Of a stretch of 44,763 nucleotides of DNA, positions 23,595 to 42,513 are shown piece by piece; the stretch's first letter is position 1; each line of letters starts with the position of its first letter. The translations under genes were made by a program, and so were the position numbers. A model generated the notes under the pieces. It had not been told where the DNA came from and did no database searches. It saw only the letters and a list, made by a program, of their open reading frames with translations. The stretch covers positions 1-44,763 of the IMG/VR virus record IMGVR_UViG_3300030310_000017; one strand, written 5' to 3'. Origin of the DNA: a virus (taxonomy: Duplodnaviria > Heunggongvirae > Uroviricota > Caudoviricetes).

Positions 23595-24161
23595 ATGGCA
23601 AGTCAGGCTGAGGTCGCAGCACATTTACTGCTATCTGATCGTCGTCTGCGCGATCTTGCAAAACTTCCGGGAGCCCCAGTCCCCCAAGGACGTGGCGATT
23701 GGGAACTTGACGCATGGCGCCATTTTTATATTCGTTATCTCCGGAGCAATAGACGCGACACAACTAGTAATGACGAACCGGAAGCGGGGGACAATTCTCC
23801 CGAAAAAAATCGCGAGCAGTGGTTGAAAAATGAGGAACGGCAGGAGCGAATCCTGATGGCTCGCGTGAAACGCCGCATTCTTGCTAAACGCTACGCGCCA
23901 ATTGAATTAATCAGCGTAGCTGTATCTCGCGTCGCAGTTGAATTACGTACCCGTGTCGAATCGTGGCCACCACGGTTAAAAAAGGTGTGGCCGGAAATGC
24001 CGCAGGAGGCGAGCAGTGTATTACGAGAGGAGCTGGCAATAGCCCTGAATGAACTGGCAGACATACGAATCGACTTCAGCGATTACGATGTCAGCGATAT
24101 CGAACGCGATCTCGACAGGGTTGAATCCCTTGCGCGTGACGATACCGATGACGGGGGTTGA
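23595..24161 (+). CDS. Terminase small subunit (putative)
   Basis: 188-aa acidic protein immediately upstream of, and overlapping, the terminase large subunit gene. Confidence 0.5.
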   Translation: MASQAEVAAHLLLSDRRLRDLAKLPGAPVPQGRGDWELDAWRHFYIRYLRSNRRDTTSNDEPEAGDNSPEKNREQWLKNEERQERILMARVKRRILAKRYAPIELISVAVSRVAVELRTRVESWPPRLKKVWPEMPQEASSVLREELAIALNELADIRIDFSDYDVSDIERDLDRVESLARDDTDDGG

Positions 24162-26010
24162 GTGGGCTGATAAACATTTTTATCTTCCCGAAGGCTCAAG
24201 CCATATTGCTGGCCACTGGACGACTCAGCCGGTCCAGGTAGTGATGTTAAATATGATGACTAACGACGCGATAAAAATCGTGTCTGTTCGCAAATCAGCT
24301 CGTCTCGGTTATACAAAAATACTCGTCGCGGCGCTGCTCTATTTCGCTGAGCACAAAAAACGTAGTGCCGTGGTCTATCAGCCTATCGATGACGAATCGG
24401 ATGGATTTGTCGCCGACGAGGTTGACCCCGCTATCGCCGAAATGCCGGTGATTCAGAAAATTTTCCCAGACTGGGATAAAAGCAACGAGCGTAACAATCT
24501 CCAGCGCAAAGAGATGAGCGGCGCAATTATTGATTTTCGCGGCGCGAGTACGCCGGGGAATTTTCGTCGACTGACGAAACAGGTTGTCGAAGGTGACGAG
24601 GTCGACGGCTGGCCGCTGGAGGTCGCTAAAAAAGGTAAAGGCGAAGGCTCGCCAATTGAGCTGGCGCTCGTTCGAATTAAGGGCGCAGCATACCCGAAAG
24701 CGATTTTTGGTTCGACGCCGACCGTTACTGGCAAAAGCCATATAGAAATGTTGGAAGACGCGGCTGATCTGACGTTTCGTTTTTACCTGAAGTGTCCGCA
24801 TTGTGGCGAGGAGCAGGTCCTGGTATTTGGTTTCGACGGTATCGAATACGGTCTCAAGTGGGATGACAGCCTGCAGACCAACGAGTCGAAATCGTCGTCC
24901 GCGTATTACCAGTGCTGCCACTGCCCGGAGCATTTTTACTATCGCGATCTCGAAAAAATGGAGCTCGGGGGGCGCTGGATAGCCGAGGACTGCACCTGGA
25001 CCCGAGACGGAATCCATTTTTTTGATCATGACAGTGGCGTCGTTCGCGCGCCGAAACACGCGGCGATCGTGATAAACGCCCTGTATTCACTAAACCTTGA
25101 TGGATGGGGCGAGATTGTCAGCGAGTGGCTGAAAGCGAAGGGCGACCCACTCAAAGAAAAAACGTTTCATAACACGACGCTCGGCGAGCTTTGGAGCGAC
25201 GTGGCCAGCGAGCAGCTGGAGCACGATATTCTGGTTAATCGCCGGGAAAAATACGCCAGCCAGGTTCCTGACGGTGTTGTTTATATAACCGGCGGCATCG
25301 ACTCTCAGACGTCCGGGCGCTACGAGTGTTACGTGTGGGGCTGGGGAGCTGAGGAAGAGTGCTGGCTGATTGATAAAACAATCGTCCTCGGTCGCTACGA
25401 CGAAGAGGACACGCTGCAGCGTGTCGACGGAGTGATTCGCAAACAATACCGGCGCAGCGACGGGACCACAATCGGCGTCAGCCGCTGGGCGTGGGATACC
25501 GGCGGTATAGATGCGCAGGTTGTTTATAACCGCTCGCTGAAACTCGGTCCGCTGTGGGTCATTCCAATTAAAGGCGCAAGCTCATACGGCCAGCCAGTCG
25601 TAAATATGCCGCGTACACGTAACGCGAATAAAGTTTATTTGTCGTTAATCGGTACTGACACAGCAAAAGATTTGCTCGCGATGCGCCTGCCACTGGAACC
25701 AGACCCAAAATCAGCGACACCGGGTGCAATTCATTTTCCAAACGACGACGAAATATTCGGCACAACAGAGGCAAAACAGCTCGTCTCTGAAGTTCTGATC
25801 CCGAAACTCATTAACGGTCGCGTCGTTTACCGCTGGGACAACCAGGGGCGGCGAAATGAGGCGCTCGACTGCTGGGTATACGGGCTGGCAGCGCTGCGTA
25901 TCAGTAAAATTCGTTTCCAGCTCAATCTCGAGACGCTCGCTGAGCAACGGAAAAAATCACAAAACAAACTGTCTCTCGAGGAGATGGCGAGAATGCTCGG
26001 AGGGAGCTAA
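24049..26010 (+). CDS. Terminase large subunit, lambda gpA-like
   Basis: Close lambda gpA-like segments throughout (VEWADKHFYLPEGS, CPHCGEEQVL, WTRDGI, YITGGIDSQ, WGWG, IPIKGAS, IGTDTAKD, RNEALDCWVYGLAALRIS). The start is ambiguous among 24049, 24086 and 24147. Confidence 0.9.
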   Translation: MNWQTYESTSAITMSAISNAISTGLNPLRVTIPMTGVEWADKHFYLPEGSSHIAGHWTTQPVQVVMLNMMTNDAIKIVSVRKSARLGYTKILVAALLYFAEHKKRSAVVYQPIDDESDGFVADEVDPAIAEMPVIQKIFPDWDKSNERNNLQRKEMSGAIIDFRGASTPGNFRRLTKQVVEGDEVDGWPLEVAKKGKGEGSPIELALVRIKGAAYPKAIFGSTPTVTGKSHIEMLEDAADLTFRFYLKCPHCGEEQVLVFGFDGIEYGLKWDDSLQTNESKSSSAYYQCCHCPEHFYYRDLEKMELGGRWIAEDCTWTRDGIHFFDHDSGVVRAPKHAAIVINALYSLNLDGWGEIVSEWLKAKGDPLKEKTFHNTTLGELWSDVASEQLEHDILVNRREKYASQVPDGVVYITGGIDSQTSGRYECYVWGWGAEEECWLIDKTIVLGRYDEEDTLQRVDGVIRKQYRRSDGTTIGVSRWAWDTGGIDAQVVYNRSLKLGPLWVIPIKGASSYGQPVVNMPRTRNANKVYLSLIGTDTAKDLLAMRLPLEPDPKSATPGAIHFPNDDEIFGTTEAKQLVSEVLIPKLINGRVVYRWDNQGRRNEALDCWVYGLAALRISKIRFQLNLETLAEQRKKSQNKLSLEEMARMLGGS

Positions 26011-26243
26011 TGACCGCGCGCGAGGTTTTAACAGAACGGCTGCTGGAAGCGGAAATCGCTCTGCACAAATTATTAACGGGTAAATCGACCGTGTCGCTGT
26101 CTCACGGCGATTCAGCGGGAAATAACCGGAGCTATCAGTACTCCCAGGCGAGTATTGAACAGCTCCGAACGTACATTATCGAGCTGAAATCACAGCTCGG
26201 TCTGAGTACGGGACGCCGCCGTCCCGTGGGAGTTCGATTATGA
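26010..26243 (+). CDS. Head-tail joining protein, lambda gpW-like
   Basis: 77-aa protein (LHKLLTGKSTVSL...YIIELKSQLG...RRRP) resembling lambda gpW in sequence and position. Confidence 0.75.
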   Translation: MTAREVLTERLLEAEIALHKLLTGKSTVSLSHGDSAGNNRSYQYSQASIEQLRTYIIELKSQLGLSTGRRRPVGVRL

Positions 26244-27814
26244 CTGCTCCACAGCAGCTGCTCGGGCCTGACGGTAAAACGCCACTACGCCGTTTTGCGG
26301 GGTATAACGGCGGCGGTCCCGGTTTCGGTGGCCAGCTGATTGACTGGAATGCGCCACAGCAAAGCGCCGATGCGGCACTGCTGCCTAATTTTTATCGCGG
26401 TAACGCGCGAGCAGACGATCTCGTTCGCAATAACGGTGTCGCGTCGAACGCCGTGCAGCTGCACCAGGATCATATTGTCGGCAATCTGTTTAAATTGAGT
26501 TATCGCCCTAACTGGCGTTACCTAGGGATATCTCGCGAGGACGCCAGGGCGCTGGCGCGTGACGTTGAGGTCGCGTGGACTGAATACGCTGAGGACCCTC
26601 ACTGCACGATTGATATCGAGCGGAAACGGACGTTCACAATGATGATCCGCGAGGGTGTGGCCACTCACGCGTTTAACGGTGAAACCTGCGTACAACCGGT
26701 CTGGGAAAGCAGTACCGGTAGCGTTTTTCGGACGCGATTCAAAATGGTTTCGCCGAAACGGATTCGAAATCCGGGTTACGCAGCTGACACCCGATTTCGC
26801 CGCGCCGGTGTTGATATCGATAAAAATGGAGCCGCAGTGGGCTACTGGATAGCCGAGGACACCTATCCACTCGGTGGAATCGGCAAGTGCCGGCGTATAC
26901 CAGCGCAGCTCAGCAGCGGCAGACACGCATTCATTCACATATTCGAGCCGCTCGAGGACGGACAGACCCGCGGAGATAACATTTTCTACAGCGTGATGGA
27001 GCGTCTGAAAATGCTCGACACGCTGCAGCAAACACAACTGCAGAGCGCCATTGTGAAGGCGATGTATGCCGCGACAATCGAATCAGAGCTCGACAGCCAG
27101 CAGGCGTTTGAATATATCGCCGGCGCGGGTACTGATATCGACTCGAACCCACTGAATTCGTTTATTCAGAGTTACGTGACGTACTACAACGGCGCAAACA
27201 TTAAATTAGGCGGCGTGAAAGTCCCTCACCTGCACCCCGGCGACAAACTCAGTTTACAGACCGCTCAGAACGCTGACGCTGGTTTCAGTTCGCTGGAAAA
27301 ATCACTCCTGCGTTACGTTGCCGCTGGCGTCGGCGCGTCATACGAAGAACTGAGTCGGGACTACAGCCAGGTCAGTTACTCCAGCGCCCGGGCCAGCGCG
27401 AACGTGAGCTGGCGATTTTTTATGGGCCGTCGACGTTTTATCGCCGCGAGACAAGCGTCGCTGATGTTTTGTTGCTGGTTTGAAGAGGCGCTGGCACGCG
27501 GAATTATCACCCTGCCACGCTCAGCGGTCCGGTCATTTTATGAGGCGCGGAACTCCTGGACGAACGCGCTTTGGATAGGTGCAGGTCGCATGGCCATCGA
27601 CGGACTGAAAGAGGTTCAGGAGAGTGCAATGCGTATCACAACTGGCCTCAGCACGTATCAGAACGAACTGGCGCTGCAGGGACAGGATTACGAGGAGGTT
27701 ATGGAGCAACAGGAATACGAAATTCAGCGCCGGCGTGAAATGGGGTTGAGCGAGCCGTCCTGGTCTGTCTCTCATCCATCAAATACCAACGATAACGGCT
27801 GGGGAGGTAACTGA
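26240..27814 (+). CDS. Portal protein, lambda gpB-like
   Basis: 524-aa ORF in the lambda gpB position, with overlapping start/stop to both neighbours. Confidence 0.85.
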   Translation: MTAPQQLLGPDGKTPLRRFAGYNGGGPGFGGQLIDWNAPQQSADAALLPNFYRGNARADDLVRNNGVASNAVQLHQDHIVGNLFKLSYRPNWRYLGISREDARALARDVEVAWTEYAEDPHCTIDIERKRTFTMMIREGVATHAFNGETCVQPVWESSTGSVFRTRFKMVSPKRIRNPGYAADTRFRRAGVDIDKNGAAVGYWIAEDTYPLGGIGKCRRIPAQLSSGRHAFIHIFEPLEDGQTRGDNIFYSVMERLKMLDTLQQTQLQSAIVKAMYAATIESELDSQQAFEYIAGAGTDIDSNPLNSFIQSYVTYYNGANIKLGGVKVPHLHPGDKLSLQTAQNADAGFSSLEKSLLRYVAAGVGASYEELSRDYSQVSYSSARASANVSWRFFMGRRRFIAARQASLMFCCWFEEALARGIITLPRSAVRSFYEARNSWTNALWIGAGRMAIDGLKEVQESAMRITTGLSTYQNELALQGQDYEEVMEQQEYEIQRRREMGLSEPSWSVSHPSNTNDNGWGGN

Positions 27815-29121
27815 TGCCGTGGAACCATTTTCCGTATATCGCCGCCCGGGCGTTTAATCAACCGCTTTTACTGGAACCCGTCTACGCACGGGTATTTTTT
27901 TCGGCGCTGAGCGACCGGTTCGGTACCGGGCGACTGATTGATACAGCGTCCGGTGAGGTAATGAGCAGCGACGAAATGAACGCGCTCGCGATGAGCTGGG
28001 ACGGCAGCGAGCGACCGCGCCAGAAAGCGTACCGCGTGGAGCGTGGTATAGCCGTGCTGCCGGTTACGGGGACGCTTGTTCATAAATTGGGTTATATCAA
28101 TCCAGTCAGTGGAATGAGTGGTTATGACGGAATCGCAAAACGTCTGCAGCAGGCGATTTCTGATCCCGATGTTAAGGGGATCCTGCTGGATATTGACTCC
28201 CCTGGCGGTGAGGTCGCCGGCGCGTTTGATACCGCTGATTTAATCGCACGGGCGCGAGAGCAAAAACCGGTGTGGGCGCTGGCCAGCGATACGGCCTGCA
28301 GCGCCGCATATTTGCTGGCGTCAGCGTGTTCGCGCCGGCTGATAACGCAGACCGGCACAGTTGGTTCAATCGGTGTCCTGATGGCTCACCGCTGCGTCGA
28401 AAAGGCGCTGGAGATTGCCGGCGTTGACGTGACGCTGATTTACGCCGGCGCGCACAAAGTCGACGGGAACCCGTATTCCCAGCTGCCCGACGACGTTCGC
28501 GACGAATTCCAGCTGAGTATTAACAGCACACGCGAGCAGTTCGCGCAAAAGGTATCAGATTATACCGGTCTGAAAAAATCCAGGGTGCTGGCCACGGAGG
28601 CCGCAGTATTTATCGGCGCGGACGCGATTAAATCTGGTCTCGCTGATCAACTCGTTAATTACGCGGACGCTATCGCAGTGATGGCCGACGCACTGAAACC
28701 AAAAATGGAGCGATTTATGCCAGGTACAGAAACCACGGCGAAGACCACGACCACAGAACAAACCGCGGCCACGACTACGGTCGCGCAGGTTGAGTTCAAC
28801 GAGAAACAGATTCGCGCTGACGCTGTGTCGAGCGAACTGGCGCGCGTGATGGCCATCATCAATTGTCCCGAAGCTGTTGGGCGCGAGGCGCAGGCAAAAG
28901 CGCTCGCTGGCGTCCCCGGGATGACCGTCGAGCAGGCGCAGCTGGTACTCGCGGCAGCACCGCAAACAGCGCAGGCGCGGACAGAAACGGCGCTCGATAC
29001 ACTAATGAGCACTGAATCACCGGAAACTATTCAGGATGCCGGAAGCACCACGGCAACAGGAACAACCGCAAACGTCTCGATGCTCGTCGCGGCGGGGCGT
29101 TCAATTTTAGGGGATGAATAA
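27814..29121 (+). CDS. Prohead protease / scaffold, lambda gpC-Nu3-like (S49 ClpP-type peptidase)
   Basis: S49-type segment GILLDIDSPGGEVAGAFDTADLIARAREQKPVWALASDTACSAAYLLASACSR followed by an Ala/Thr-rich scaffold-like C-terminus. Confidence 0.8.
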   Translation: MPWNHFPYIAARAFNQPLLLEPVYARVFFSALSDRFGTGRLIDTASGEVMSSDEMNALAMSWDGSERPRQKAYRVERGIAVLPVTGTLVHKLGYINPVSGMSGYDGIAKRLQQAISDPDVKGILLDIDSPGGEVAGAFDTADLIARAREQKPVWALASDTACSAAYLLASACSRRLITQTGTVGSIGVLMAHRCVEKALEIAGVDVTLIYAGAHKVDGNPYSQLPDDVRDEFQLSINSTREQFAQKVSDYTGLKKSRVLATEAAVFIGADAIKSGLADQLVNYADAIAVMADALKPKMERFMPGTETTAKTTTTEQTAATTTVAQVEFNEKQIRADAVSSELARVMAIINCPEAVGREAQAKALAGVPGMTVEQAQLVLAAAPQTAQARTETALDTLMSTESPETIQDAGSTTATGTTANVSMLVAAGRSILGDE

Positions 29122-29450
29122 TGACAACAGAAACGTATAGCCCGGACGATTTTATTCTGGGACCCGATCTCGTTGTGACGACCGTCGGTCATTTTCAGGG
29201 CGGGATCAACGTACCCCGGCTGACGCCTGTCATGGTCGACGCTACCGCCGGCACGTTTAAAGTCTGGGACGGTTCAGTCGGTAAGGCCATTGGCCTCACA
29301 GCCACCGCAGTTAATACGGGTTCCAGTTCTGCAGACTGCTCGTACTACAAATCAGGCTCGTTCCATTACACGGCGATCAATTGGGGTACGGTTACCGACG
29401 TAGCTAAACGCAAATCAGCGTTTGCAGGTACGCCGATCAGCGTCGGCTGA
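29121..29450 (+). CDS. Head decoration protein, lambda gpD-like
   Basis: 109-aa protein with YKSGSFHY and SAFAGTPISV segments matching the lambda gpD pattern. Confidence 0.8.
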   Translation: MTTETYSPDDFILGPDLVVTTVGHFQGGINVPRLTPVMVDATAGTFKVWDGSVGKAIGLTATAVNTGSSSADCSYYKSGSFHYTAINWGTVTDVAKRKSAFAGTPISVG

Positions 29451-29508: not shown

Positions 29509-30543
29509 ATGAGCGATTCGTTTACTACGTCAGAACTCATTACCGCGACACAGCAGGTATTTAAGTTCAATCCGTTATTTTTAAGACTTTTTTTTCGTGA
29601 GACATACACGTTTACGAGCGAAGAGATTTTTCTGGATAAAATCCCGGGAAAAGTGAACATGGCCGTGTACTGCGCGCCGATGATCACCGGCAAAGTTGAC
29701 CGCACTCGCGGCTATTCAACGAACCATTTCAAACCGGGTTACACGAAGCCGAAACACACGATCAATCCGAATATGAGCATCAAGCGCGCCGCAGGTGAGC
29801 AGATTGGCCAGCAGGAAACGCCGGTCGAACGTCGTGCAAAAATTATCATGCAGAACCTGCTCGATGAGGAATTGAGCATCAGCCAGCTCGAAGAGTTCCA
29901 GGCGGTACAGGCTGTTCTGTACGGTAAATACACAGTTTCCGGCAGCAATATCGAGACCTATGAGATCGACATGAGCCGCAGCGCGACGAATAACGTCACT
30001 CAGTCTGGTTCGACAGCATGGTCGACTCAGGACGCGGAAACGTATGACCCGAGCGACGATATTGAATCCTACGCGGACCTCGCCTCCGGTGCGGTTAACG
30101 TGATCATCATGGATGGTAAAGCCTGGAAGCAGTTGAAGCGTTTTAAAAAATTCTGGACGGCACTGGATACGCGCCGCGGCTCAAACAGTCAGCTCGAAGT
30201 CGCGCTGAAAAACCTGGGCGATGTCGTTAGCTTTAAGGGTTATTACGGCGACACGGCGCTGTTTGTCTACAAAGGGCAATACATCGACCCGGTAACAGTC
30301 ACTGAAACGCGTTATATGCCGGATAACACGATGATCCTTGGCAACACAAAAAACCGCGGGCTCCGCACTTATGGCGCAATTCAGGACGAAGACGCGCTGA
30401 AAGAGGGGATTTGCGAAGCGACGCGCTATCCAAAAGTCTGGACCACTACCGGTGATCCGGCAGTGACGCAAACAATGACGCAATCCGCGCCAGCAATGGT
30501 CCTCACGGACGCCGACGCGTTCGTTGTCGTAAAAATTGCGTAA
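29509..30543 (+). CDS. Major capsid protein, lambda gpE-like
   Basis: Long collinear similarity to lambda gpE (FKFNPLFLRLFFRE, GYTKPKH, RGSNSQLE, RGLRTYG, RYPKVWTTTGDPA). Confidence 0.92.
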   Translation: MSDSFTTSELITATQQVFKFNPLFLRLFFRETYTFTSEEIFLDKIPGKVNMAVYCAPMITGKVDRTRGYSTNHFKPGYTKPKHTINPNMSIKRAAGEQIGQQETPVERRAKIIMQNLLDEELSISQLEEFQAVQAVLYGKYTVSGSNIETYEIDMSRSATNNVTQSGSTAWSTQDAETYDPSDDIESYADLASGAVNVIIMDGKAWKQLKRFKKFWTALDTRRGSNSQLEVALKNLGDVVSFKGYYGDTALFVYKGQYIDPVTVTETRYMPDNTMILGNTKNRGLRTYGAIQDEDALKEGICEATRYPKVWTTTGDPAVTQTMTQSAPAMVLTDADAFVVVKIA

Positions 30544-30577: not shown

Positions 30578-30997
30578 ATGAGCACAAAAACAGAATTGCT
30601 GGCGCGCATTGACGATCTGAGCGCTCAGCTCGGTCGCGAATTACCGCGCAGCGGGACTATTGCGGAACTGGAATCAATCGTTGCCGGCGCTGAGTCAGAG
30701 CTCGATATTCTGAATGAGCAATCTGGTGACGCGGGAGGCATCGAGATCGCGGTGAATACTGCGCCCGGGACTGATAGCGATCTCGCTCAATCAATCGCGA
30801 GCGCTATCGTTTCACAGTCACAAGAACCGGAGCTTGCACCGGCTACGCGCCGCGTTAAGCTGCGTAACACGCTGGACGTTTATCACTACGTGAACGGGCG
30901 TCGCGTTCGCGAGATTGTTGCCGCTGGACGTGAAATTGTTGTTGATTCACCGGAGGTCGCGGACCTCATCGCAGCTGATCACGTTTACGCGCTATGA
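30578..30997 (+). CDS. DNA-packaging protein, lambda FI-like
   Basis: 139-aa protein with an FI-like N-terminus (TKTELLARIDDLSAQLGRELPRSGTIAELE), in the FI position. Confidence 0.55.
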   Translation: MSTKTELLARIDDLSAQLGRELPRSGTIAELESIVAGAESELDILNEQSGDAGGIEIAVNTAPGTDSDLAQSIASAIVSQSQEPELAPATRRVKLRNTLDVYHYVNGRRVREIVAAGREIVVDSPEVADLIAADHVYAL

Positions 30998-31374
30998 GCT
31001 ACTACGATGACCTCCGGGCTGGCGACGAGGAGATGATCCGTGAGTGGGGACGGCCCGTTAAATTACGCGGTAAAACCGACCCCATTATCGCTATTTTCAA
31101 CGAGCCTTACGCGCGCGTTGACGTTCCTCACGCTGGTTTTATTACCGGTACAGTAACGAGCCTGACAGCGCTCTCAGACGACGTCGCTGGCGTTGTTGCG
31201 CGTGACGTTGTCCAGGTCCCAAAGCAGCGCAGTATCGCTGCTGACGGCTCAGTTACCTGGTCTTGTTGGACCGATTACGTTGTTAAAGAACCTCAGCCGG
31301 ATGGCACAGGGCTCACGAATATTTTTTTAGAGTCTCACACACCCAGCGAAAACAGCGAGTATTCAAAATACTAA
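30994..31374 (+). CDS. Head-tail connector, lambda FII-like
   Basis: 126-aa ORF in the FII position with ATGA overlap; the N-terminus is weakly FII-like. Confidence 0.45.
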   Translation: MSYYDDLRAGDEEMIREWGRPVKLRGKTDPIIAIFNEPYARVDVPHAGFITGTVTSLTALSDDVAGVVARDVVQVPKQRSIAADGSVTWSCWTDYVVKEPQPDGTGLTNIFLESHTPSENSEYSKY

Positions 31375-35392: not shown

Positions 35393-36338
35393 ATTAAAAT
35401 CAAATCTGAAAGCTAACGCGAGCCAAGTTTATGCGGTGCTGACAGACCGTGGCGCGCAATTAGAAGCTGCGGCGCTGGCGTCAGGCGTGCCGGTAGTGCT
35501 AAATAAATTCGTTATTGGTGACGCGAACGGAAATGACGACGTAACACCAGACCCGGCCAGAACGGCATTAATTCACGAGACGTATCGCGGAGATATTAAA
35601 TCGTCAGAAAATAGCGGTAATCAGGTCATTTTTACACTGTACGTACCGCCGGAAACCGGCGGTTATACCATCCGCGAGGTGGGGATATTAACAGATAAAG
35701 GGGAACTGTACTCAGTTGCACGTTCACCGGATATTTTAAAACCTACGGACAGCAACGGCGCGCTGATTTCAATCACGTATAAATACACTCTCGCGGTGTC
35801 CAGCACGTCTACTGTTAACGTTGTTATTGATAACAGTAGCGGAATGAGCCAGGCAGATGCCGATAAACGATATTTGCAGATAGGTAAAAATTTATCTGAA
35901 ATTAAAGATAAAGGCACGGTGGCGCAAAAAACGGCGCGAGAAAATATCGGCGTAAATCTTGATAATTATTACACCAAAGAAGACGTTGATGATTTAATTG
36001 ATGCTAACGATGACCCTGCACCGGCGGTGCCTGCGTTTGCAGCTGTCGGCTCAGTTGTTTATGCTGGATTTACATTCGATAACTCTACTGTAATGCACTA
36101 TAAACCTGGTGATCAGTTACAAGGTTCGATAATTTCCCCTGCATGCATTCAATGGAAATATACCGGAGGTGTCGGCTCTATGAGCGAAGCCACGCTTACG
36201 CTAACTTTTGGAAGTGAGCCATTGCCTGGTATTTGGCAATTGTGCGGACTGATCCCCCAGAGCTATGAGCCATCTTCCGGGGCTGGTGAAGATATCTATA
36301 CTGGCAAATTTGCAACTAATTTCACGAGGATAGCGTAA
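35376..36338 (+). CDS. Tail fibre protein, P2 gpH-like N-terminal domain
   Basis: N-terminal region (ALIHETYRGD...FTLYVPPETGGYTIREVGIL) matches the conserved gpH N-domain. The start may be the ATG at 35385. Confidence 0.75.
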   Translation: MDPMAKLKSNLKANASQVYAVLTDRGAQLEAAALASGVPVVLNKFVIGDANGNDDVTPDPARTALIHETYRGDIKSSENSGNQVIFTLYVPPETGGYTIREVGILTDKGELYSVARSPDILKPTDSNGALISITYKYTLAVSSTSTVNVVIDNSSGMSQADADKRYLQIGKNLSEIKDKGTVAQKTARENIGVNLDNYYTKEDVDDLIDANDDPAPAVPAFAAVGSVVYAGFTFDNSTVMHYKPGDQLQGSIISPACIQWKYTGGVGSMSEATLTLTFGSEPLPGIWQLCGLIPQSYEPSSGAGEDIYTGKFATNFTRIA

Positions 36339-36343
36339 AACAA

Positions 36344-36577
36344 ATGATAACAATTGATAACTTTTCAAATATAAAAACACAGCGCTATTCCAGCGCATCG
36401 AATAACAGTATTGATATTGTCTGTGACATACAAGGGATCGGTAATGCTATTTTATTTACTGCATCTAAAACAGACTCCACATTATATGGCCGAGAGTTAT
36501 ACGAGCGCGCCGCTTGCGGTGAATTTGGTGATGTTGCTGAATATGTGGCTCCAATTATAATCGAATCAGGAGAGTAA
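36344..36577 (+). CDS. Hypothetical small protein (tail-fibre assembly candidate)
   Basis: 77-aa ORF between the fibre and sheath genes. Confidence 0.3.
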   Translation: MITIDNFSNIKTQRYSSASNNSIDIVCDIQGIGNAILFTASKTDSTLYGRELYERAACGEFGDVAEYVAPIIIESGE

Positions 36578-36582: not shown

Positions 36583-38082
36583 ATGAGCACTAATTTTTTG
36601 CACGGCCCCCGCACGCTAGAATACGACGACGGCACAAAAGAAATCAGCACGGTAGATATTTCAGTTATCGGGATTGTTGGTACTGCAACGAACGTCGCAG
36701 AGGCTACGAGAGCTTCATTAATGTGGGGTTCATCACTGGCTGATAATCTCGTTGAATTTTCAACGGTATCACCAGGCAGCGACGGTAATAAATGGGTTGT
36801 TGAAATTGTAGATATGACGGTTGATGGCGCAACATGCACTCCGGGATACAGCACGCTGCCCGACGGAACAAAAAAATTAACGATGATTACGGAGCTGGGA
36901 ATGACTCCCAGCAAAATGTATGATCAGAATCAGGGATACAGAGAGGGTAAATCAGACGGAGAATGGATAAATGTAACATTTGGCGGCGATCATTCTGGCA
37001 CCGGCACAGTATTCGGCCTCCCGCCGACAAATTTATCTGGCGGAACTGATGATGCATTCCCAATTAATTCACCAGTATTAATTGCAGGCAGTCAGAAAAA
37101 AGCCGCGCTGCTCGGGAAATACGGGACCCTGCCTACCGCAATTTCTGATATTTTAAATCAGACAGATGCGCTAATCGTTGCCGTTCGCGTTGCCGAGAGT
37201 AGCGACGACTCTGATATGAACGAAAATGTTATTGCCGGAATTAACGCGCTGTTGACGTCAGCACAAATTAACGGAGTTACACCACGAATTATTATAGCGC
37301 CGGATTACAGCGCCCGCGATGAGGTCGCAGCGCAAATTGAGGTGGTCGCAAATAAACTTCGCGGCGTTGGATATATTGACTCTCCGCATTTAGCTACACC
37401 CGCAAATGTTGTAAATCGTCGGCAAAATTTCGGAGCGCGCGTAGAATTGTTGCGTCCCCGTGTTTATTCAACTAGCGACGTAGGCGGGCAATCAAGACCA
37501 TATTCAGCCATTGCTGCTGGTTTACGAGCCAGGATAGATAACGAAAAGGGGTTTTGGTGGAGCAAATCGAACCAGAATATCTACGGAGTTACAGGGCTTG
37601 AACAGGTCGACGATTTTATTATTGGTGAGACAAACTGCACAGCGAACCTGCTGAACGCTAGTCAGGTCAGCACCATCATTCGCTATGACGGGTTCAGACA
37701 CTGGGGTAACTATCTGTGCAGTCTGGATTCGCAGTGGTCGTTTGAATGCGTTCGTCGAACAGCTGATGTAATTGAGGATTCTATAGCCCGGGCAATGATG
37801 ACCGATTTTATTGATCGCCCGATAGATCTGCACCTCGGAACAGACGTCGTAGAGTCAATAAACGCATATCTGCATAAATTAGAGGAGCGGGGCGCGATTA
37901 ACGGAGGTCGGGCGTGGTTAGACGGTGAGTTGAATACAAAAGAAAGTCTGGCTGCGGGTAATCTTTATATTAATGTTGATTTTGGCCCGAAATCTCCGGC
38001 ACAAACAATTACGTTAATGTACCGCATTAATAATGACTATACAGTTGAAGCACTGGCCTCCCTTTTTAAAGAAACAGCCTGA
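36583..38082 (+). CDS. Contractile tail sheath protein, P2 FI-like
   Basis: N-terminus (HGPRTLEYDDGTKEISTV) and C-terminus (RYDGFRHWGN, AGNLYINVDFGP) match the P2 FI sheath pattern. Confidence 0.9.
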   Translation: MSTNFLHGPRTLEYDDGTKEISTVDISVIGIVGTATNVAEATRASLMWGSSLADNLVEFSTVSPGSDGNKWVVEIVDMTVDGATCTPGYSTLPDGTKKLTMITELGMTPSKMYDQNQGYREGKSDGEWINVTFGGDHSGTGTVFGLPPTNLSGGTDDAFPINSPVLIAGSQKKAALLGKYGTLPTAISDILNQTDALIVAVRVAESSDDSDMNENVIAGINALLTSAQINGVTPRIIIAPDYSARDEVAAQIEVVANKLRGVGYIDSPHLATPANVVNRRQNFGARVELLRPRVYSTSDVGGQSRPYSAIAAGLRARIDNEKGFWWSKSNQNIYGVTGLEQVDDFIIGETNCTANLLNASQVSTIIRYDGFRHWGNYLCSLDSQWSFECVRRTADVIEDSIARAMMTDFIDRPIDLHLGTDVVESINAYLHKLEERGAINGGRAWLDGELNTKESLAAGNLYINVDFGPKSPAQTITLMYRINNDYTVEALASLFKETA

Positions 38083-38099: not shown

Positions 38100-38612
38100 A
38101 TGTCAGACAGCAACGCTTACCGCGCGTTTGCGCTATTCGTGCAGGGCGAACGGGTTTTAAATTGTACTGAATATACTCCTGTCGATATGAAAATAATCGA
38201 GGACGAGTTTAAAACAGGCGCGATGGATACAGCCATCACATTAGATGGCGGTATGGAGAAAATGTCAGCCAGTTTTAAAGTTTCGGGTTCTGATTCTGGT
38301 GTTATGAGCTATTTCGGGTTAATACCGGGAGTCAAGACGCGGTTTGAAATTCGTAGTGCGTACACAGACTCCTATGGAATAAATTTTGAGCGTATTGATA
38401 CCTACGAGGGACTTATTACGGCAATCACTGATGACGCTCAGGGGACTGATTCTAAATCGTCAGTGGGGCAATCAGTAACGATTGCGCCGAGCTATTATAA
38501 ACGAGTTCAAAATGGACGAATTATTTACGAAATTCATCCTGCAAAAATGAAACGCGTTATCAATGGTGTTGATGTTCTTGCGGGCGTCGCTCGAATCCTT
38601 CATGTATATTAA
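38100..38612 (+). CDS. Tail tube protein, P2 FII-like
   Basis: 170-aa ORF directly after the sheath gene, with a NGVD-containing C-terminus similar to P2 FII. Confidence 0.75.
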   Translation: MSDSNAYRAFALFVQGERVLNCTEYTPVDMKIIEDEFKTGAMDTAITLDGGMEKMSASFKVSGSDSGVMSYFGLIPGVKTRFEIRSAYTDSYGINFERIDTYEGLITAITDDAQGTDSKSSVGQSVTIAPSYYKRVQNGRIIYEIHPAKMKRVINGVDVLAGVARILHVY

Positions 38613-38624: not shown

Positions 38625-38906
38625 ATGGAATCATTATTAGACAGTATGACTATTACGCTCTCTCGACCATTTATTATTAAGGGCGAGAGCCGCGATACAA
38701 TTACTATTCGCGAACCAAAATTACGCGACCGCATTATGTTCAGTAACGATAAAAGCGGTCTTGAAGAGCGGACAGCGACAATGCTGGCGCGCCTGGCAAA
38801 TCTGGAAAGAGAGGATTTATATGCGCTCCCCGCGTGCGATTACGATCAACTGGAGGCCGCGTTTAACGAACTGGTAAAGCACCCGAAAGACCGACATCAG
38901 ATATAG
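38625..38906 (+). CDS. Tail assembly chaperone, P2 gpE-like
   Basis: 93-aa ORF upstream of the tape-measure gene. A second reading frame is open from about 38867 to about 39050, overlapping its 3' end. Confidence 0.65.
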   Translation: MESLLDSMTITLSRPFIIKGESRDTITIREPKLRDRIMFSNDKSGLEERTATMLARLANLEREDLYALPACDYDQLEAAFNELVKHPKDRHQI

Positions 38907-39014
38907 TTATTCTGATTCCGTTTATTGCGAAAAAACTTGCCATCCCGCCTGATACGCAAATGGACCTGCCGTATCGGGTTTTTAATTTCTATGTAAACGA
39001 GGTCATGAAAACCG

Positions 39015-40655
39015 ATGGCTATTTCTCAAAACTTTAAAACGCAGGTTGTATTCGGGGGGCGAATAGACCCGTCGTTTCGGCGCGGTACAACAGAACTCAA
39101 CGACGCCATTCGGCAGACGTCGTCTACTGTCGGAAAATTAACGAAAAGCCAGGATAAATTAAAAGACAAAATCGCAGCAATGAAACTGGCAGGTAAAGAT
39201 GTCTCTGATTTATCTGCTCAGTATCAAAAGCTGGACCGTCGGATAAAGGCGACAACGCAGGACCAGGAGGCGCTGAATACCCAGCTTGCTAAAAAACAGC
39301 GGCTGGAGAAGTGGACGGGGCGCGCAAAAGGTGCTGCAAAATGGGGCGGACGAGCCACCGCAGGTGCGGTGAGGGCCACGGGACGGGGTATCAAATGGGG
39401 GACGCTGGGGGCCGTGGGTCTGCTCGGCGGCGCGACTGCTGGCGCGCTGGCAATGAATGCAGAGACGTCAGAAAAACTCGGTCTGGCGAAGTCCTACGGT
39501 GTTGGCATCGAAAAATACGCTGCGTGGGAAAATATTGGTAAAGCTGCGGGCCTGAACGGCGAAAATGTTGGTGACCTGTCAGAAGAACTTACAAATAAAA
39601 TCGGCGAAATCGGAAACGAAAAAAACCTGAACCCCATGTTGTTTCAAATTGGCTTGACAAAAAAACGGATGGCTAAATGGGATCGAGAAAAACAGTTCAA
39701 TGAAGTTATGCGGCGTATCTCTGAAATGAAGGATGATCAACAGGCGGCGAGTCTGGCTGATCAGCTAATGGGGGGAGAGGCTAATAAAATAATGACCTAT
39801 ATGCGGGCGACTGGTAAAAGCTGGGAGCAGACTATGTCGGACGCTCAAAAATCAAACCTGCTAACGAAAGAAGGGGCTGAGGGTGCAGCGCGCGCGCACG
39901 TATCCGTCACGAATCTGTGGGGGGCAATCACATCGGGGCTGGCAGATACTCTCGGGAAAATCGGAGGGGAACTCGCGCCGACGTTTGACGCTATGCGAGA
40001 CGGGCTGGCATCCTGGTTTAAAGAGAATCAAGGGGGGGTTGTTGATAGTATTAAAGAATGGGTTAAGCCAGAAAATATGAAAAAACTTTGGGAGGGGATA
40101 GTCAGTTTTGGCGAGGCGTGCGTTAAATTCGGAAAAATAATTTGGGCAGTCGTAAAAAAACTGGAGTGGTTAATCCCGGACGAGAAAACAGACGAGGAAC
40201 AGCGCGTATATAACGAAGAATATAATAAAGCGTATCAGGAATTCATGGATAGTGGTGGTAAATATTCACCGAACCCAGGACTGGCAGCAGATAATGTAGC
40301 AAAAGCAAAAGCCGACGAAGCCGTGGATAATATGCGACACCCTGAACGTCTTGCTCGTGCAAAATCACAGGCTGAATCAATGCTCTCGTTTGCTAACCCG
40401 TTTACTGGATTAATAAATAAAGACTCAACGCCTGAATCACAAAACTCAGCAACGTTGAATATTGACGCGCTGAGACAGGCAGTCGCAACTCCAGCGCCAG
40501 AGCAAAACAATAAAATTGAAATCAATATTATCGGAGCAGCAGATCCACAATCAACACAGCAGGCTGCCGCATCGGGTGTGCTCGACGGGCTGAGACAGGT
40601 TGCGAGTTCGTACAATCGTGGTGCAATGTTTGATAAACCAGCGGCGGCGGGGTGA
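39015..40655 (+). CDS. Tail tape-measure protein
   Basis: 546-aa protein that is Gly/Ala-rich with coiled-coil character, in the canonical position after the chaperone gene. Confidence 0.8.
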   Translation: MAISQNFKTQVVFGGRIDPSFRRGTTELNDAIRQTSSTVGKLTKSQDKLKDKIAAMKLAGKDVSDLSAQYQKLDRRIKATTQDQEALNTQLAKKQRLEKWTGRAKGAAKWGGRATAGAVRATGRGIKWGTLGAVGLLGGATAGALAMNAETSEKLGLAKSYGVGIEKYAAWENIGKAAGLNGENVGDLSEELTNKIGEIGNEKNLNPMLFQIGLTKKRMAKWDREKQFNEVMRRISEMKDDQQAASLADQLMGGEANKIMTYMRATGKSWEQTMSDAQKSNLLTKEGAEGAARAHVSVTNLWGAITSGLADTLGKIGGELAPTFDAMRDGLASWFKENQGGVVDSIKEWVKPENMKKLWEGIVSFGEACVKFGKIIWAVVKKLEWLIPDEKTDEEQRVYNEEYNKAYQEFMDSGGKYSPNPGLAADNVAKAKADEAVDNMRHPERLARAKSQAESMLSFANPFTGLINKDSTPESQNSATLNIDALRQAVATPAPEQNNKIEINIIGAADPQSTQQAAASGVLDGLRQVASSYNRGAMFDKPAAAG

Positions 40656-41080
40656 CAATGAGTGATGCAATAAACGGTGCTGAGGATATCATGCTCGGTT
40701 TGGGTGATTTCATTTTTGCTATATCAACAGTAGCGTACAACAAACTGCAACGTAGTGACGCCTGGCGCTGGGCTCAGCAAACACGATTCGGGAAAAACGA
40801 CGCATTGCAGATAACCGGACGACCGAACCCCACAATCACGATCGATGGGAAAATAAACGCGTTATTCCTTGATGGGTGCGGCATTGGCTTGTTAACAGAT
40901 TTGCGGGCACTGGGGAACTCGGGAGAACCCCAGCAACTGGTGCTGGGGACCGGGGAGGTGAAGGGGTACTGGGTTATCAGGGAGTTAACAGAAACGCAAA
41001 ACAGTTTTCTGAAAGGAGGGACCCCAAAATCGCAGGACTTTTCACTCACGCTCGAATATTATGGAGCTTCGCTAGATTAA
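40652..41080 (+). CDS. Tail protein, P2 gpU-like
   Basis: 142-aa protein with gpU-like segments (MLGLGDFIF, DAWRWAQ, FSLTLEYYG). Confidence 0.7.
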   Translation: MTMSDAINGAEDIMLGLGDFIFAISTVAYNKLQRSDAWRWAQQTRFGKNDALQITGRPNPTITIDGKINALFLDGCGIGLLTDLRALGNSGEPQQLVLGTGEVKGYWVIRELTETQNSFLKGGTPKSQDFSLTLEYYGASLD

Positions 41081-41253
41081 TACAAAATCAAGCGCTACCA
41101 GAGCACTTAACAAGTATAAAAATAATAAAAAAAACTACGAGCATAAATGTAAAACAACCTGATGGTATTTTTTTTGACGCCGAAATACTAATACCTCTCC
41201 GACTACTAAAATTAATTCTCATTATGAAATCCTTTTAATTAATGGGGCCCCAA

Positions 41254-41466
41254 ATGATTACATACACTACACGGGACGGTGACCGTCTCGATCAGATCTG
41301 CCTTGCTGTCTACGGGAGAACAGCAAAAACGACAGAAACCGTGTTATATCAAGTTTTAAATTACGGCGTAACGGATATGTGTGCCGTGTTTCGTGCAGGA
41401 GAAAAAATTGTTTTACCAGAAATCGACCCCGAACCGGCTAAAAAAGAAACGCAATTATGGGATTGA
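41254..41466 (+). CDS. Tail protein, P2 gpX-like (LysM-like)
   Basis: Contains GDRLDQICLAVYGRT...TVL, matching the P2 gpX pattern. The track start at 41242 is an alternative. Confidence 0.7.
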   Translation: MITYTTRDGDRLDQICLAVYGRTAKTTETVLYQVLNYGVTDMCAVFRAGEKIVLPEIDPEPAKKETQLWD

Positions 41467-41469
41467 TGA

Positions 41470-42513
41470 ATGAGTGATTACGTAAATACTGGCGTGGAAG
41501 CATGGAAGCCCAATTTTTATATATCTGCTGATAATGAAAACATCACGGATAAAATAAGAAAAGGTTTGATCAATATCACGCTCACAGATTATGGTGGTTC
41601 GAGTAAACAGACAGACGAATTACGCGTAGCAATCGTTTCTGAAACTCTGAAAATTCCGGCCCGCGGAGTAAAAATCAGTATTGGGCTCGGTTTCGGTAAT
41701 CAGATAATTGATAAGGGTGTATACATCGTTGATGGTGCGAGCAGTGGCGGTGAACCCCGGGTAGTTGATTTCACAGCAAAAGCAGCTCCGATGAACGCAT
41801 CAAAAGGCTCTCCGACAGTTCAGAGCAAAAAAACTCGCTCCTGGAGCGACGTCACTGTCAGCAATATCGTTGCAACAATAGCGAGCGATAACGGGCTAAA
41901 ACCTCGCGTATCAAAGCGGTTTGCAGACAACATTATCACGCAGCTCGATCAAGTCGGCGAGTCAGATATGCACCTGATGTCGCGGCTCGCAACGAGATTC
42001 GATGCGGTGAGTAAACCCGCGGGCGGGTACTGGATATTCCTGCCGCGCGGCGCGGGCGAATCTGTTAGCGGAGCACCGCTTCAGCACTACACGCTCACGC
42101 GTCGTGATAACTCAAGCTGGGGTTATTCGAGAAATGGACAAAACGGTGATAGTGGCGGAGGTGGCGAAAATGCGGAGCCAACGTATTTGATCAAATATCA
42201 CGATACAGCAACGGGGCAGATCAAAGAATTGCGTACGGGCAGTGGCGGCGATCCTGTAATCGAGTGGCCGGCAGTGGAGCCGTCGCTTGATGCAGCGAAA
42301 GAAGCTGCGCCAGGACTCAAGGGCGGTGCAGCTAAAAAAGAGTTCTCCATGACTTACACGACGCCCGCGACGCTCGATTTAGTATCGCTGACTGCAGAAT
42401 GCAAAGTCACAACACAAGGATTCGGGACAGAGGAGGACCGAGACTGGACAATCAATACGTTGACGCTGACGCTGGCTGAAAACGGATTCTCTGCGCGACT
42501 GTCGCTGGAGTAA
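41470..42513 (+). CDS. Tail protein, P2 gpD-like (late control D family)
   Basis: 347-aa protein with an N-terminal region resembling gpD, located after the gpU/gpX genes. Confidence 0.8.
   Translation: MSDYVNTGVEAWKPNFYISADNENITDKIRKGLINITLTDYGGSSKQTDELRVAIVSETLKIPARGVKISIGLGFGNQIIDKGVYIVDGASSGGEPRVVDFTAKAAPMNASKGSPTVQSKKTRSWSDVTVSNIVATIASDNGLKPRVSKRFADNIITQLDQVGESDMHLMSRLATRFDAVSKPAGGYWIFLPRGAGESVSGAPLQHYTLTRRDNSSWGYSRNGQNGDSGGGGENAEPTYLIKYHDTATGQIKELRTGSGGDPVIEWPAVEPSLDAAKEAAPGLKGGAAKKEFSMTYTTPATLDLVSLTAECKVTTQGFGTEEDRDWTINTLTLTLAENGFSARLSLE

What the first reader, a model, noticed from the sequence alone, without database searches (positions are those of the whole stretch)
23595..42513. 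Mosaic virion module: lambda-type packaging/head genes joined to a P2-type contractile tail
The terminase large subunit, gpW, portal, gpC protease/scaffold, gpD decoration, gpE major capsid and FI/FII-like proteins are lambda-like. The tail genes are P2-like in both content and order (V, W, J, I, H, then sheath, tube, chaperone, tape measure, U, X, D). The junction at 31406-32619 carries two unassigned proteins that presumably adapt a siphovirus-type head/connector to a myovirus tail. This head/tail combination resembles known lambdoid myoviruses such as SfV-like phages.
Basis: partly seen in the sequence, partly recalled or inferred. Interest (0 to 1): 0.45.

Follow-up and report, generated by a model that had tools for sequence, protein, structure and literature searches.

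The report
Lambda-type head, P2/pyocin-type contractile tail
This is the intact particle-building gene block of a common E. coli prophage that pairs a lambda-type head with a P2/pyocin-type contractile tail, an arrangement already described in other phages, so it is ordinary.

Summary
From 23595 to 42513, one strand carries lambda-type packaging and head genes (TerS, TerL, W, portal, C, D, E, FI, FII). A P2-type contractile tail follows (V, W, J, I, H, sheath, tube, chaperone, tape measure, U, X, D).

The interpretation needs three corrections.

1. The two "unassigned" junction proteins can be named. The first (31406-32086) is a divergent lambda gpZ-family tail-completion protein. The second (32083-32619) has the tail-terminator fold and is closest to the R2-pyocin collar PA0615. 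FII, Z-like and terminator therefore mirror lambda's FII-Z-U.

2. SfV and ST64B are not relatives. They have HK97-type heads and Mu-type tails, and share almost no sequence with this block.

3. This is not a fresh mosaic joint. The whole block, junction genes included, has the same gene order as Vibrio phage Valp1, which electron microscopy shows has a 90 nm contractile tail. It also lies in about 8% of complete E. coli genomes at 90-95% DNA identity.

All 22 genes tested are under purifying selection, so they are not decayed remnants.

The virion module also runs past the stated end. A second, lambda Stf-type fibre gene lies at 42519-44315.

The lambda-head/P2-tail combination is already published for Wolbachia WO phages, Xylella XfP1/XfP2 and the VHML group. 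Interest is low.

The parts
23595..24161 (+). Small terminase subunit.
   Evidence: phrog_57, E 2e-39. 46% identical to Valp1 TerS. Only a weak BLASTP match to lambda Nu1 (E 0.012).
24148..26010 (+). Large terminase, gpA type. The ORF is open from 24049; the likely start is the ATG at 24148.
   Evidence: Pfam GpA_ATPase and GpA_nuclease. 42% identical to lambda A and 59% to Valp1 TerL. Start read from the sequence.
26010..26243 (+). gpW head-tail adaptor.
   Evidence: Pfam gpW, E 6e-16. 35% identical to lambda W.
26240..27814 (+). Portal protein, lambda family.
   Evidence: Pfam Phage_portal_2, E 1e-90. 64% identical to lambda B.
27814..29121 (+). gpC-type S49 head protease. A scaffold role for the C-terminal part is inferred from lambda C/Nu3.
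   Evidence: Pfam Peptidase_S49. 56% identical to lambda C.
29121..29450 (+). gpD head decoration protein.
   Evidence: Pfam HDPD. 37% identical to lambda D.
29509..30543 (+). gpE major capsid protein.
   Evidence: Pfam Phage_cap_E, E 1e-58. 56% identical to lambda E.
30578..30997 (+). FI packaging chaperone.
   Evidence: Pfam Packaging_FI and phrog_92. Only the N-terminal 48 aa align with lambda FI.
30994..31374 (+). FII-type head closure protein, which docks the tail.
   Evidence: Pfam Phage_attach, E 4e-11. phrog_82 'head closure Hc1'. No BLASTP hit to lambda FII.
31406..32086 (+). Junction protein 1: a gpZ-family tail completion (Neck1) protein.
   Evidence: phrog_27, E 3e-42. 3 of the 32 aligned sequences (homologues, not the window protein) hit Pfam Minor_tail_Z, best E 2e-12. 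BFVD fold hits include HK97 gp10 and virion-morphogenesis proteins. dN/dS 0.05.
32083..32619 (+). Junction protein 2: tail terminator (collar) that caps the tube and sheath.
   Evidence: phmmer and a profile search hit the R2-pyocin collar PA0615 (E 0.007 and 3.5e-4). Foldseek gives PA0615 at 2.8e-8, then the Mu terminator, the diffocin collar and lambda gpU. dN/dS 0.09.
32600..33502 (+). gpV baseplate spike.
   Evidence: Pfam Phage_base_V. 35% identical to P2 V over the N-terminal 117 aa.
33505..33846 (+). gpW/gp25 baseplate wedge protein.
   Evidence: Pfam GPW_gp25. 37% identical to P2 W.
33843..34763 (+). gpJ baseplate wedge protein.
   Evidence: Pfam Baseplate_J. 40% identical to P2 J.
34766..35392 (+). 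gpI baseplate wedge protein, the fibre attachment point.
   Evidence: Pfam Tail_P2_I, E 3e-37. 34% identical to P2 I.
35385..36338 (+). Short H-type tail fibre. The N-terminus is conserved; the C-terminal receptor-binding part is swapped between relatives.
   Evidence: Pfam Phage_tail_fib N-terminus. 34% identical to the P2 H N-terminus. The C-terminus differs among relatives.
36344..36577 (+). Small ORF (77 aa), probably a fibre assembly helper.
   Evidence: 46% identical to the N-terminal half of the 129-aa protein after H in vB_EcoM-705R4. 38% identical to the yong2 'tail fiber assembly protein'.
36583..38082 (+). Tail sheath, with about 120-155 extra N-terminal residues and a hypervariable first 300 aa.
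   Evidence: Pfam sheath domains. R2-pyocin sheath PA0622 at E 3.5e-51 over residues 142-491. 35% identical to P2 FI. Variability shown.
38100..38612 (+). Tail tube.
   Evidence: Pfam Phage_tube, E 8e-22.
38625..39037 (+). Tail assembly chaperone E (38625-38906) and its -1 frame extension E' (open 38867-39037).
   Evidence: Pfam Phage_TAC_7. The -1 frame ORF overlaps the tape-measure start, as in P2, Valp1, yong2 and Chris1. The slip site (candidate G GTA AAG, 38873-38879) is inferred.
39015..40655 (+). Tape measure protein (546 aa).
   Evidence: Assigned by its position between the chaperone and gpU. phrog_3654, E 5e-248. 35% identical to the Valp1 gene in the same position. No Pfam or NCBIfam family.
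40652..41080 (+). gpU tube initiator.
   Evidence: Pfam Phage_P2_GpU, E 1e-32. 36% identical to P2 U.
41242..41466 (+). gpX baseplate 'glue' protein (LysM-like).
   Evidence: Pfam Phage_tail_X. 39% identical to P2 X.
41470..42513 (+). gpD baseplate hub.
   Evidence: 26% identical to P2 D over 370 aa, E 6e-24. phrog_52, E 1e-92.
42519..44315 (+). Second tail fibre with a lambda Stf-type N-terminus. It lies outside the finding's coordinates.
   Evidence: Pfam phage_tail_N, E 4e-24. Several tail-fibre PHROGs. It is the last-but-one gene before the prophage end in E. coli GF43.

Best explanation
This is the complete late (virion) gene block of a temperate lambdoid myovirus integrated in an E. coli-type genome.

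Shown by homology:
- A Nu1/gpA-type terminase, a lambda-family portal, the gpC protease, the gpE capsid protein, the gpD decoration protein and the FI chaperone build and fill the head.
- gpW and an FII-type protein close the head.
- The tail parts are a baseplate (hub D, tube initiator U, spike V, wedge W/J/I, glue X, fibre H), a tape measure with its E and E' chaperones, a tube and a sheath.
- The two 'junction' genes belong to this set. One is a gpZ-family tail-completion protein. The other has the fold of a PA0615-like terminator.

Inferred:
- The tail assembles on its own pathway, and the terminator hexamer caps the tube and sheath.
- The finished head joins the finished tail through contact between FII and the terminator.
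- Expression is lambda-style. The block sits in one long late operon downstream of a Q antiterminator and the lysis genes, not in P2-style Ogr-dependent operons.

The head-plus-tail combination is old and inherited as one unit. It is not a recent recombination joint at 31406-32619.
For: Gene content: family assignments come, and identities to lambda and P2.

Junction proteins:
- Junction protein 2 has the terminator fold and sequence.
- Junction protein 1 belongs to the gpZ / tail-completion family.

The block is a co-inherited unit:
- The whole block, from TerS through FII, Z-like, terminator, V-W-J-I, sheath, tube and tape measure to U-X-D, has the same gene order as Vibrio phage Valp1. Identities are 30-59% for 18 genes.
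- Electron microscopy of Valp1 shows a 60 nm head and a 90 x 20 nm contractile tail (PMC11054321).
- The trio FII, Z-like and ~180-aa terminator, followed by V, recurs in Hafnia phage yong2, Citrobacter phage Chris1, a Vibrio genome and a Klebsiella contig.

The genes are intact and maintained:
- Every gene aligns over its full length with relatives.
- dN/dS against the E. coli S42 prophage is 0.01-0.28 for all 22 genes tested.
- At least 80% of the block is present in 442 of 5426 complete E. coli genomes at 90-95% identity.

Signs of active infection:
- An E. coli CRISPR array carries a 35-nt perfect match to the sheath gene.
- 28 E. coli spacers are reported against the related record vB_EcoM-705R4 (PMC12736100).

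Expression:
- Q lies at 20888-21559 and the lysis genes at 21672-22806, immediately upstream. Positions come and their identity from the 705R4 and S42 annotations.
- The block has fewer promoter-like sites than shuffled sequence, 10 against 21.7.

Roles of the P2 tail parts are taken from the P2 cryo-EM preprint (10.64898/2026.09.14.750843).
Against: - No particle of this prophage or of its close E. coli relatives has been seen. The vB_EcoM-705R4 record ends in a host gene (yecA), so it looks like a predicted prophage rather than a sequenced virion.
- The terminator model has modest confidence (mean pLDDT 64).
- The gpZ link for junction protein 1 is indirect. The window protein itself does not reach Pfam Minor_tail_Z, and hhalign against lambda Z alone is not significant.
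- No canonical slippery heptamer was found for E'.
- No lambda-like cosN sequence was found.
Confidence: 0.85

Rival explanations
1. One reading: an SfV/ST64B-like lambdoid myovirus, in which two novel adaptor proteins fit a siphovirus-type connector to a myovirus tail.
For: SfV and ST64B are also temperate enterobacterial phages with contractile tails. They too carry a 'Neck1' gene followed by a hypothetical gene ahead of the sheath.
Against: - Their heads are HK97-type, with no gpW, C, D, E, FI or FII. Their tails are Mu-type (L, M, N, P, gp45-48) in a different order.
- tblastn of all 25 window proteins finds only a short V-spike segment, plus one marginal match in ST64B that lies outside its sheath gene.
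- The junction proteins fall into known neck families.
Confidence: 0.02
2. A recent recombinant: a lambda-like siphovirus prophage acquired a P2-like tail inside E. coli, with the breakpoint at 31406-32619.
For: - Similarity to lambda fades towards the junction: portal 64%, E 56%, only the N-terminus of FI, FII by profile only.
- The portal, C and E proteins are closer to lambda than to Valp1, while TerS and TerL are closer to Valp1. Some exchange inside the head module has therefore happened.
Against: - Identity to P2 is only 26-40%, and there is no DNA-level similarity to lambda apart from about 150 bp of the portal gene.
- The same FII, Z-like, terminator and V joint exists in phages of Vibrio, Hafnia, Citrobacter and Klebsiella.
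- GC content shows no step at the junction.
Confidence: 0.03
3. A defective prophage. The tail genes would be remnants, or would be used as a head-less R-type tailocin.
For: - The gene order from the terminator to D is that of the R2 pyocin (order recalled from the pyocin literature, not checked here). The sheath and terminator are closest to pyocin proteins among solved structures.
- Some relatives are damaged: D is split in vB_EcoM-705R4, and the distal fibre is truncated in S42.
- The H fibre is short (317 aa).
Against: - A full head and packaging module lies in the same operon, and all its ORFs are intact.
- Purifying selection acts on head, neck and tail genes alike.
- The window also holds an integrase, replication genes, Q and lysis genes.
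- CRISPR spacers target the family.
Confidence: 0.1

Closest known systems
E. coli prophages deposited as Escherichia phage vB_EcoM-705R4, -720R5, -569R10 and -783R5 (ON470624 and others), and the equivalent prophages beside zinT/yodB in E. coli S42 and GF43
   Same: - About 91-94% DNA identity over 90-98% of the block.
- Most proteins are 95-99% identical and in the same order.
- In GF43 the right end is 99.9% identical.
   Different: - The sheath allele is only 76-83% identical at the protein level.
- The C-terminus of the H fibre and its helper ORF differ.
- The distal Stf-type fibre differs or is truncated.
Vibrio phage Valp1, and more loosely the VHML / VP58.5 group (Vhmlvirus)
   Same: - The gene order is the same from TerS to gpD, including FII, the Neck1 protein, the 176-aa terminator and V.
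- 18 proteins are 30-59% identical.
- Electron microscopy shows a contractile tail (PMC11054321).
- The VHML tail is described in the literature as P2-like in a genome that otherwise resembles lambda and N15 (PMC10612066).
   Different: - Valp1 is a telomere phage with a protelomerase and ParAB, not an integrating lambdoid.
- It has an extra PAAR gene and one more gene after V, and a longer fibre.
- No Stf-type fibre is annotated after its D gene.
Hafnia phage yong2 and Citrobacter phage Chris1
   Same: - Both are lambdoid temperate phages with a gpA terminase, gpW, a lambda-family portal and FII.
- Both carry homologues of the two junction proteins (30-33% identical) and a long sheath (46% identical).
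   Different: - The head uses one long gene annotated only as a Clp protease. No separate capsid gene is annotated, so it is read here as a protease-capsid fusion in place of separate C, D and E.
- The tail genes are ordered V, sheath ... D, then W-J-I-H.
Phage lambda head and neck (Nu1, A, W, B, C, D, E, FI, FII, Z, U)
   Same: Same families in the same order. The block reads FII, Z-like, terminator where lambda reads FII, Z, U.
   Different: - Identity is only 35-64%.
- The terminator is the contractile-tail (PA0615) type.
- No lambda V, G, T, H, M, L, K, I or J tail genes are present.
Phage P2 tail and the R2 pyocin of Pseudomonas aeruginosa (PA0615-PA0628)
   Same: - All the P2 tail families are present.
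- The order collar, V-W-J-I-H, sheath, tube, chaperone, tape measure, U-X-D is that of the pyocin cluster (order recalled from the pyocin literature, not checked here).
- Among solved structures, the sheath and terminator are closest to PA0622 and PA0615.
   Different: - There are no P2 head genes (Q, P, O, N, M, L) in the block, and no ogr gene was seen in the module or in the annotated relatives.
- No sequence match to P2 R or S was detected.
- In P2, X sits elsewhere.
- Unlike a pyocin, the block has a head module.
- The sheath carries an extra N-terminal domain.
Wolbachia WO phages and Xylella XfP1/XfP2
   Same: Published as lambda-like packaging and head genes joined to P2-like baseplate and tail genes. 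The WORiC gene list even places a 'minor tail protein Z' two genes from baseplate protein V, on the head side (PMC3235987).
   Different: The hosts are distant. Sequence similarity was not measured here.

Membership tests
Lambda-type head and packaging module | gpA-type large terminase with ATPase and nuclease domains. | tested here: met
   Pfam E 3e-46 and 3e-63. 42% identical to lambda A.
Lambda-type head and packaging module | gpW adaptor, lambda-family portal, S49 gpC protease, gpD decoration protein and gpE capsid protein, in that order. | tested here: met
   All five pass the Pfam gathering thresholds. The order is identical to lambda.
Lambda-type head and packaging module | FI and FII head completion proteins. 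| tested here: met
   Pfam Packaging_FI (36.5 bits, cut-off 27) and Phage_attach (43.8 bits, cut-off 26). BLASTP to lambda finds only the N-terminus of FI.
Lambda-type head and packaging module | Nu1-type small terminase and a lambda-like cos site. | tested here: inconclusive
   phrog_57 terminase small subunit. No Pfam hit, and BLASTP to Nu1 gives only E 0.012. No convincing cosN-like sequence.
P2-type contractile tail (tail module of Peduoviridae and R-type pyocins) | Baseplate set V, W, J, I, U, X, D. | tested here: met
   Pfam hits. 26-40% identical to the P2 proteins.
P2-type contractile tail (tail module of Peduoviridae and R-type pyocins) | FI-type sheath and FII-type tube. | tested here: met
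   Pfam hits. 35% identical to P2 FI. PA0622 at E 3.5e-51.
P2-type contractile tail (tail module of Peduoviridae and R-type pyocins) | E and E' chaperone pair made by a -1 frameshift just ahead of the tape measure. | tested here: inconclusive
   TAC_7 domain, plus a 56-codon -1 frame ORF that overlaps the tape-measure start and resembles the yong2 and Chris1 extensions. No canonical slippery heptamer. Frameshifting itself cannot be tested here.
P2-type contractile tail (tail module of Peduoviridae and R-type pyocins) | gpR/PA0615-type tail terminator. | tested here: met
   PA0615 by sequence profile (E 3.5e-4) and by fold (E 2.8e-8). No direct match to P2 gpR.
Peduoviridae (true P2-like phages) | P2-type head genes Q, P, O, N, M, L and Ogr-type late control. 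| tested here: not met
   The head genes are lambda-type. The block lies downstream of a Q antiterminator.
SfV/ST64B-like phages | HK97-type head (portal, prohead protease, HK97-fold capsid protein without gpD and gpE). | tested here: not met
   SfV and ST64B annotations. No tblastn hit for any window head protein.
SfV/ST64B-like phages | Mu-type tail (L sheath, M tube, N, P, gp45-48) in the Mu order. | tested here: not met
   Only a short V-spike segment matches. The gene order differs.
R-type tailocin | A tail cluster without head and packaging genes. | tested here: not met
   A complete head and packaging module lies directly upstream on the same strand.

The most novel reading that the evidence does not exclude
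The tail surface of this prophage family may be under diversifying pressure and may use two independent receptor-binding systems on one P2-type baseplate.

- Sheath: its first ~300 residues, including an extra domain absent from P2 and pyocin sheaths, behave as a swappable cassette. The window's allele is found in only 6 of 459 E. coli genomes. The common allele is about 70% identical in DNA, inside a block that is otherwise 91-94% identical.
- Fibres: the phage encodes both a short P2 H-type fibre and, after gpD, a lambda Stf-type fibre.

If both fibres are mounted, and if the sheath domain is a target of host defence or of adsorption, this would be an unusual case of modular tail-surface variation.
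Probability: 0.15. Interest if true: 0.4.

Novelty: already known. Interest (0 to 1): 0.12.

Why it matters
It matters little beyond annotation. The lambda-head/P2-tail design is published, and this prophage family is already in public databases and in about one in twelve complete E. coli genomes.

The useful by-products are these:
- Names for two genes that every related record found here leaves as 'hypothetical': a gpZ-family tail-completion protein and a PA0615-type tail terminator.
- The point that the head-to-tail interface to study is FII against the terminator.
- The correction that SfV and ST64B are not the right comparison.

Tried and rejected
- hhalign of the junction-protein alignments against single sequences of lambda Z, P2 R and P2 S gave nothing significant. 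The gpZ link therefore rests on PHROGs and on intermediate homologues.
- A Foldseek search of the Z-like model against the PDB found no match, so no solved structure resembling it was found. The BFVD search gave only unnamed or weak tail-completion hits.
- NCBIfam had no model for the tape measure, the junction proteins, either fibre or TerS. The PDB sequence search for the tape measure was empty.
- A lambda cosN motif search was not above chance.
- A search for a canonical X XXY YYZ slip site in the E gene found none.
- Literature searches for 'lambda-like head' together with 'P2-like tail', for yong2, and for the vB_EcoM-705R4 source paper found no description of this E. coli prophage family's particles.
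- I considered a recent recombination joint at the junction. I rejected it because the joint is conserved across genera.

Full report
**What is there**

The ORF map shows one uninterrupted run of + strand genes from 23595 to the end of the window. Pfam assigns the first half to lambda's head and packaging families. These are the gpA terminase ATPase and nuclease, gpW, the lambda-family portal, the S49 peptidase gpC, decoration protein D, capsid protein E, FI and FII/Phage_attach.

Pfam assigns the second half to P2 tail families. These are V, W/gp25, J, I, the tail-collar fibre N-terminus, sheath, tube, the TAC_7 chaperone, U, X and, weakly, D.

Direct BLASTP against lambda and P2 proteins gives 35-64% identity for A, W, B, C, D, E and FI. 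It gives 26-40% for V, W, J, I, H (N-terminus), FI, FII, U, X and D (reference genes).

Some details need adjusting:
- 23595-24161 is the small terminase (phrog_57).
- The large terminase probably starts at the in-frame ATG at 24148.
- The tape measure (39015-40655) matches no curated family. It is assigned by position and by homology to the equivalent gene of relatives.

**The two junction genes**

The 178-aa protein (32083-32619) hits the R2-pyocin collar PA0615 over nearly its whole length. phmmer gives E 0.007 and a profile of 11 homologues gives E 3.5e-4.

Its AlphaFold model has mean pLDDT 64. Foldseek matches it to PA0615 at E 2.8e-8. The next matches are the phage Mu terminator, the PhiTE connector, the diffocin collar, the monocin cap, lambda gpU and the T5 terminator. 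It is a tail terminator. A recent P2 cryo-EM preprint describes P2 gpR and PA0615 as the ring that caps the tube, anchors the top of the sheath and receives the head adaptor.

The 226-aa protein (31406-32086) matches phrog_27, 'tail completion or Neck1 protein', at E 3e-42. Three of the 32 aligned sequences, all homologues rather than the window protein itself, reach Pfam Minor_tail_Z (lambda gpZ family), best E 2e-12.

Its model (pLDDT 80) finds nothing in the PDB. Among predicted viral structures it finds HK97-gp10-like proteins and 'virion morphogenesis' tail-completion proteins.

The order FII, Z-like, terminator therefore repeats lambda's FII, Z, U. The genes are ordinary neck components, not special adaptors. 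The real interface between a lambda-type connector and a contractile tail is FII against the terminator. That fits with FII being the most diverged head protein: it has a Pfam hit but no BLASTP hit to lambda FII. This last point is an inference.

**Order**

P2 keeps X next to L and the lysis genes, and R and S in another operon. Here the order is terminator, V-W-J-I-H, small ORF, sheath, tube, chaperone, tape measure, U-X-D. That is the order of the R2-pyocin cluster PA0615-PA0628 (established knowledge, not checked here). It is also the order in Valp1.

A -1 frame ORF of 56 codons is open from 38867 to 39037 and overlaps the tape-measure start. Its sequence resembles the corresponding extensions in yong2 and Chris1, and P2 has the same layout. 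This is the expected E/E' pair. The slip site is only a candidate (G GTA AAG, 38873-38879).

**Relatives**

Megablast finds at least 80% of the block in 442 of 5426 complete E. coli genomes at 90-95% identity. It also finds four GenBank phage records (vB_EcoM-705R4 and others) at about 91%. In these records the two junction genes are 'hypothetical'.

In S42 and GF43 the prophage sits beside yodB/zinT. The left half of the window is 99% identical to a prophage of ETEC1738, and the right end is 99.9% identical to GF43.

By protein, the nearest isolated phages are Hafnia yong2, Citrobacter Chris1 and Vibrio Valp1. Valp1 has the same gene order from TerS to gpD, and 18 of its proteins are 30-59% identical. 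Electron microscopy shows a 60 nm head and a 90 x 20 nm contractile tail (PMC11054321). Valp1's early region is of the telomere-phage type. The virion block is therefore an old unit that has been combined with different lifestyles.

The trio FII, Z-like and terminator, followed by V, also recurs in a Vibrio genome and a Klebsiella contig.

**SfV and ST64B**

Both have HK97-type heads and Mu-type tails. Of 25 window proteins, tblastn finds a short part of the V spike in both phages. It also finds one marginal ST64B match (24% over 70 aa) that lies outside the ST64B sheath gene.

**Prior knowledge**

Lambda-like head genes joined to P2-like tail genes are described for Wolbachia WO phages and Xylella XfP1/XfP2 (PMC3235987). 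They are also described for VHML (PMC10612066).

**Function or remnant?**

Every gene aligns over its full length with relatives. dN/dS against the S42 prophage is 0.01-0.28 for all 22 genes tested, including the two junction genes at 0.05 and 0.09.

CRISPR spacers target the family. One E. coli array has a perfect 35-nt match to the sheath gene, and 28 spacers against 705R4 are reported (PMC12736100).

The window also holds an integrase, replication genes, Q and lysis genes. I found no direct particle evidence for the E. coli family. The 705R4 record ends in a host gene, which suggests a predicted prophage.

**Beyond the stated coordinates**

After gpD comes a 598-aa fibre gene with the lambda Stf-type N-terminal domain (42519-44315). 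A small lipoprotein-like gene follows. In GF43 the prophage then ends. The virion module is therefore longer than the finding states, and it carries a second fibre type.

**Verdict**

This is a well-populated, already described kind of phage architecture. Novelty is low and interest is about 0.12.

Noticed in passing
window 36583-38082 (especially 36655-37480): Sheath residues ~25-300 are hypervariable between prophages that are otherwise near-identical; identity in 25-aa blocks falls to 16-24%. The last 200 residues are about 100% conserved. The window's allele occurs in only 6 of 459 E. coli genomes, and 439 carry an allele about 70% identical in DNA. The first ~120-155 residues have no counterpart in the P2 or pyocin sheath.
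   Followed up: partly
window 36885-36919: A CRISPR array in E. coli B1_2 (NZ_CP074764, 1149926-1149960) carries a perfect 35-nt match to the sheath gene.
   Followed up: no
window 42519-44315 and 44344-44763: A second tail fibre gene (598 aa) with a lambda Stf-type N-terminal domain follows gpD, and a 139-aa lipoprotein-like gene (phrog_890) follows that. Most relatives keep only the N-terminal part or carry a different C-terminus. How a Stf-type fibre would attach to a P2-type baseplate is unknown.
   Followed up: partly
window 41088-41222 (minus strand): A 44-aa ORF with one hydrophobic segment lies on the opposite strand in the AT-rich gap between gpU and gpX, with a hairpin after it. The equivalent position in E. 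coli S42 is annotated 'superinfection immunity protein'. It looks like an inserted accessory gene.
   Followed up: partly
window 35985-36577: The C-terminal ~120 aa of the H fibre and the following 77-aa ORF form an exchangeable cassette. They are identical in S42. GF43 and 705R4 carry different, longer versions, with 192-aa and 129-aa partner ORFs.
   Followed up: partly
window 29470-29489 and 30542-30559: GC-rich hairpins followed by T-runs sit just after the decoration gene D and just after the capsid gene E. They may serve as mRNA-stabilising or attenuating structures within the late operon.
   Followed up: no
window 13000-17000: A low-GC island (33-42% against about 50% elsewhere) lies in the early region of the prophage. 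Relatives annotate a DUF262 protein and other accessory genes in their early regions, so it may hold defence or accessory cargo.
   Followed up: no
window 23595-30543 compared with lambda and Valp1: The head module is itself uneven. TerS and TerL are closer to Vibrio phage Valp1 (46% and 59%) than to lambda (about 22% and 42%). The portal, C and E proteins are closer to lambda (64%, 56%, 56%) than to Valp1 (49%, 35%, 34%).
   Followed up: no
L012 (Klebsiella contig) 11223-12349: A related Klebsiella prophage has an extra tube-like gene and an extra gpU-like gene between the terminator and gpV. The window lacks both.
   Followed up: no
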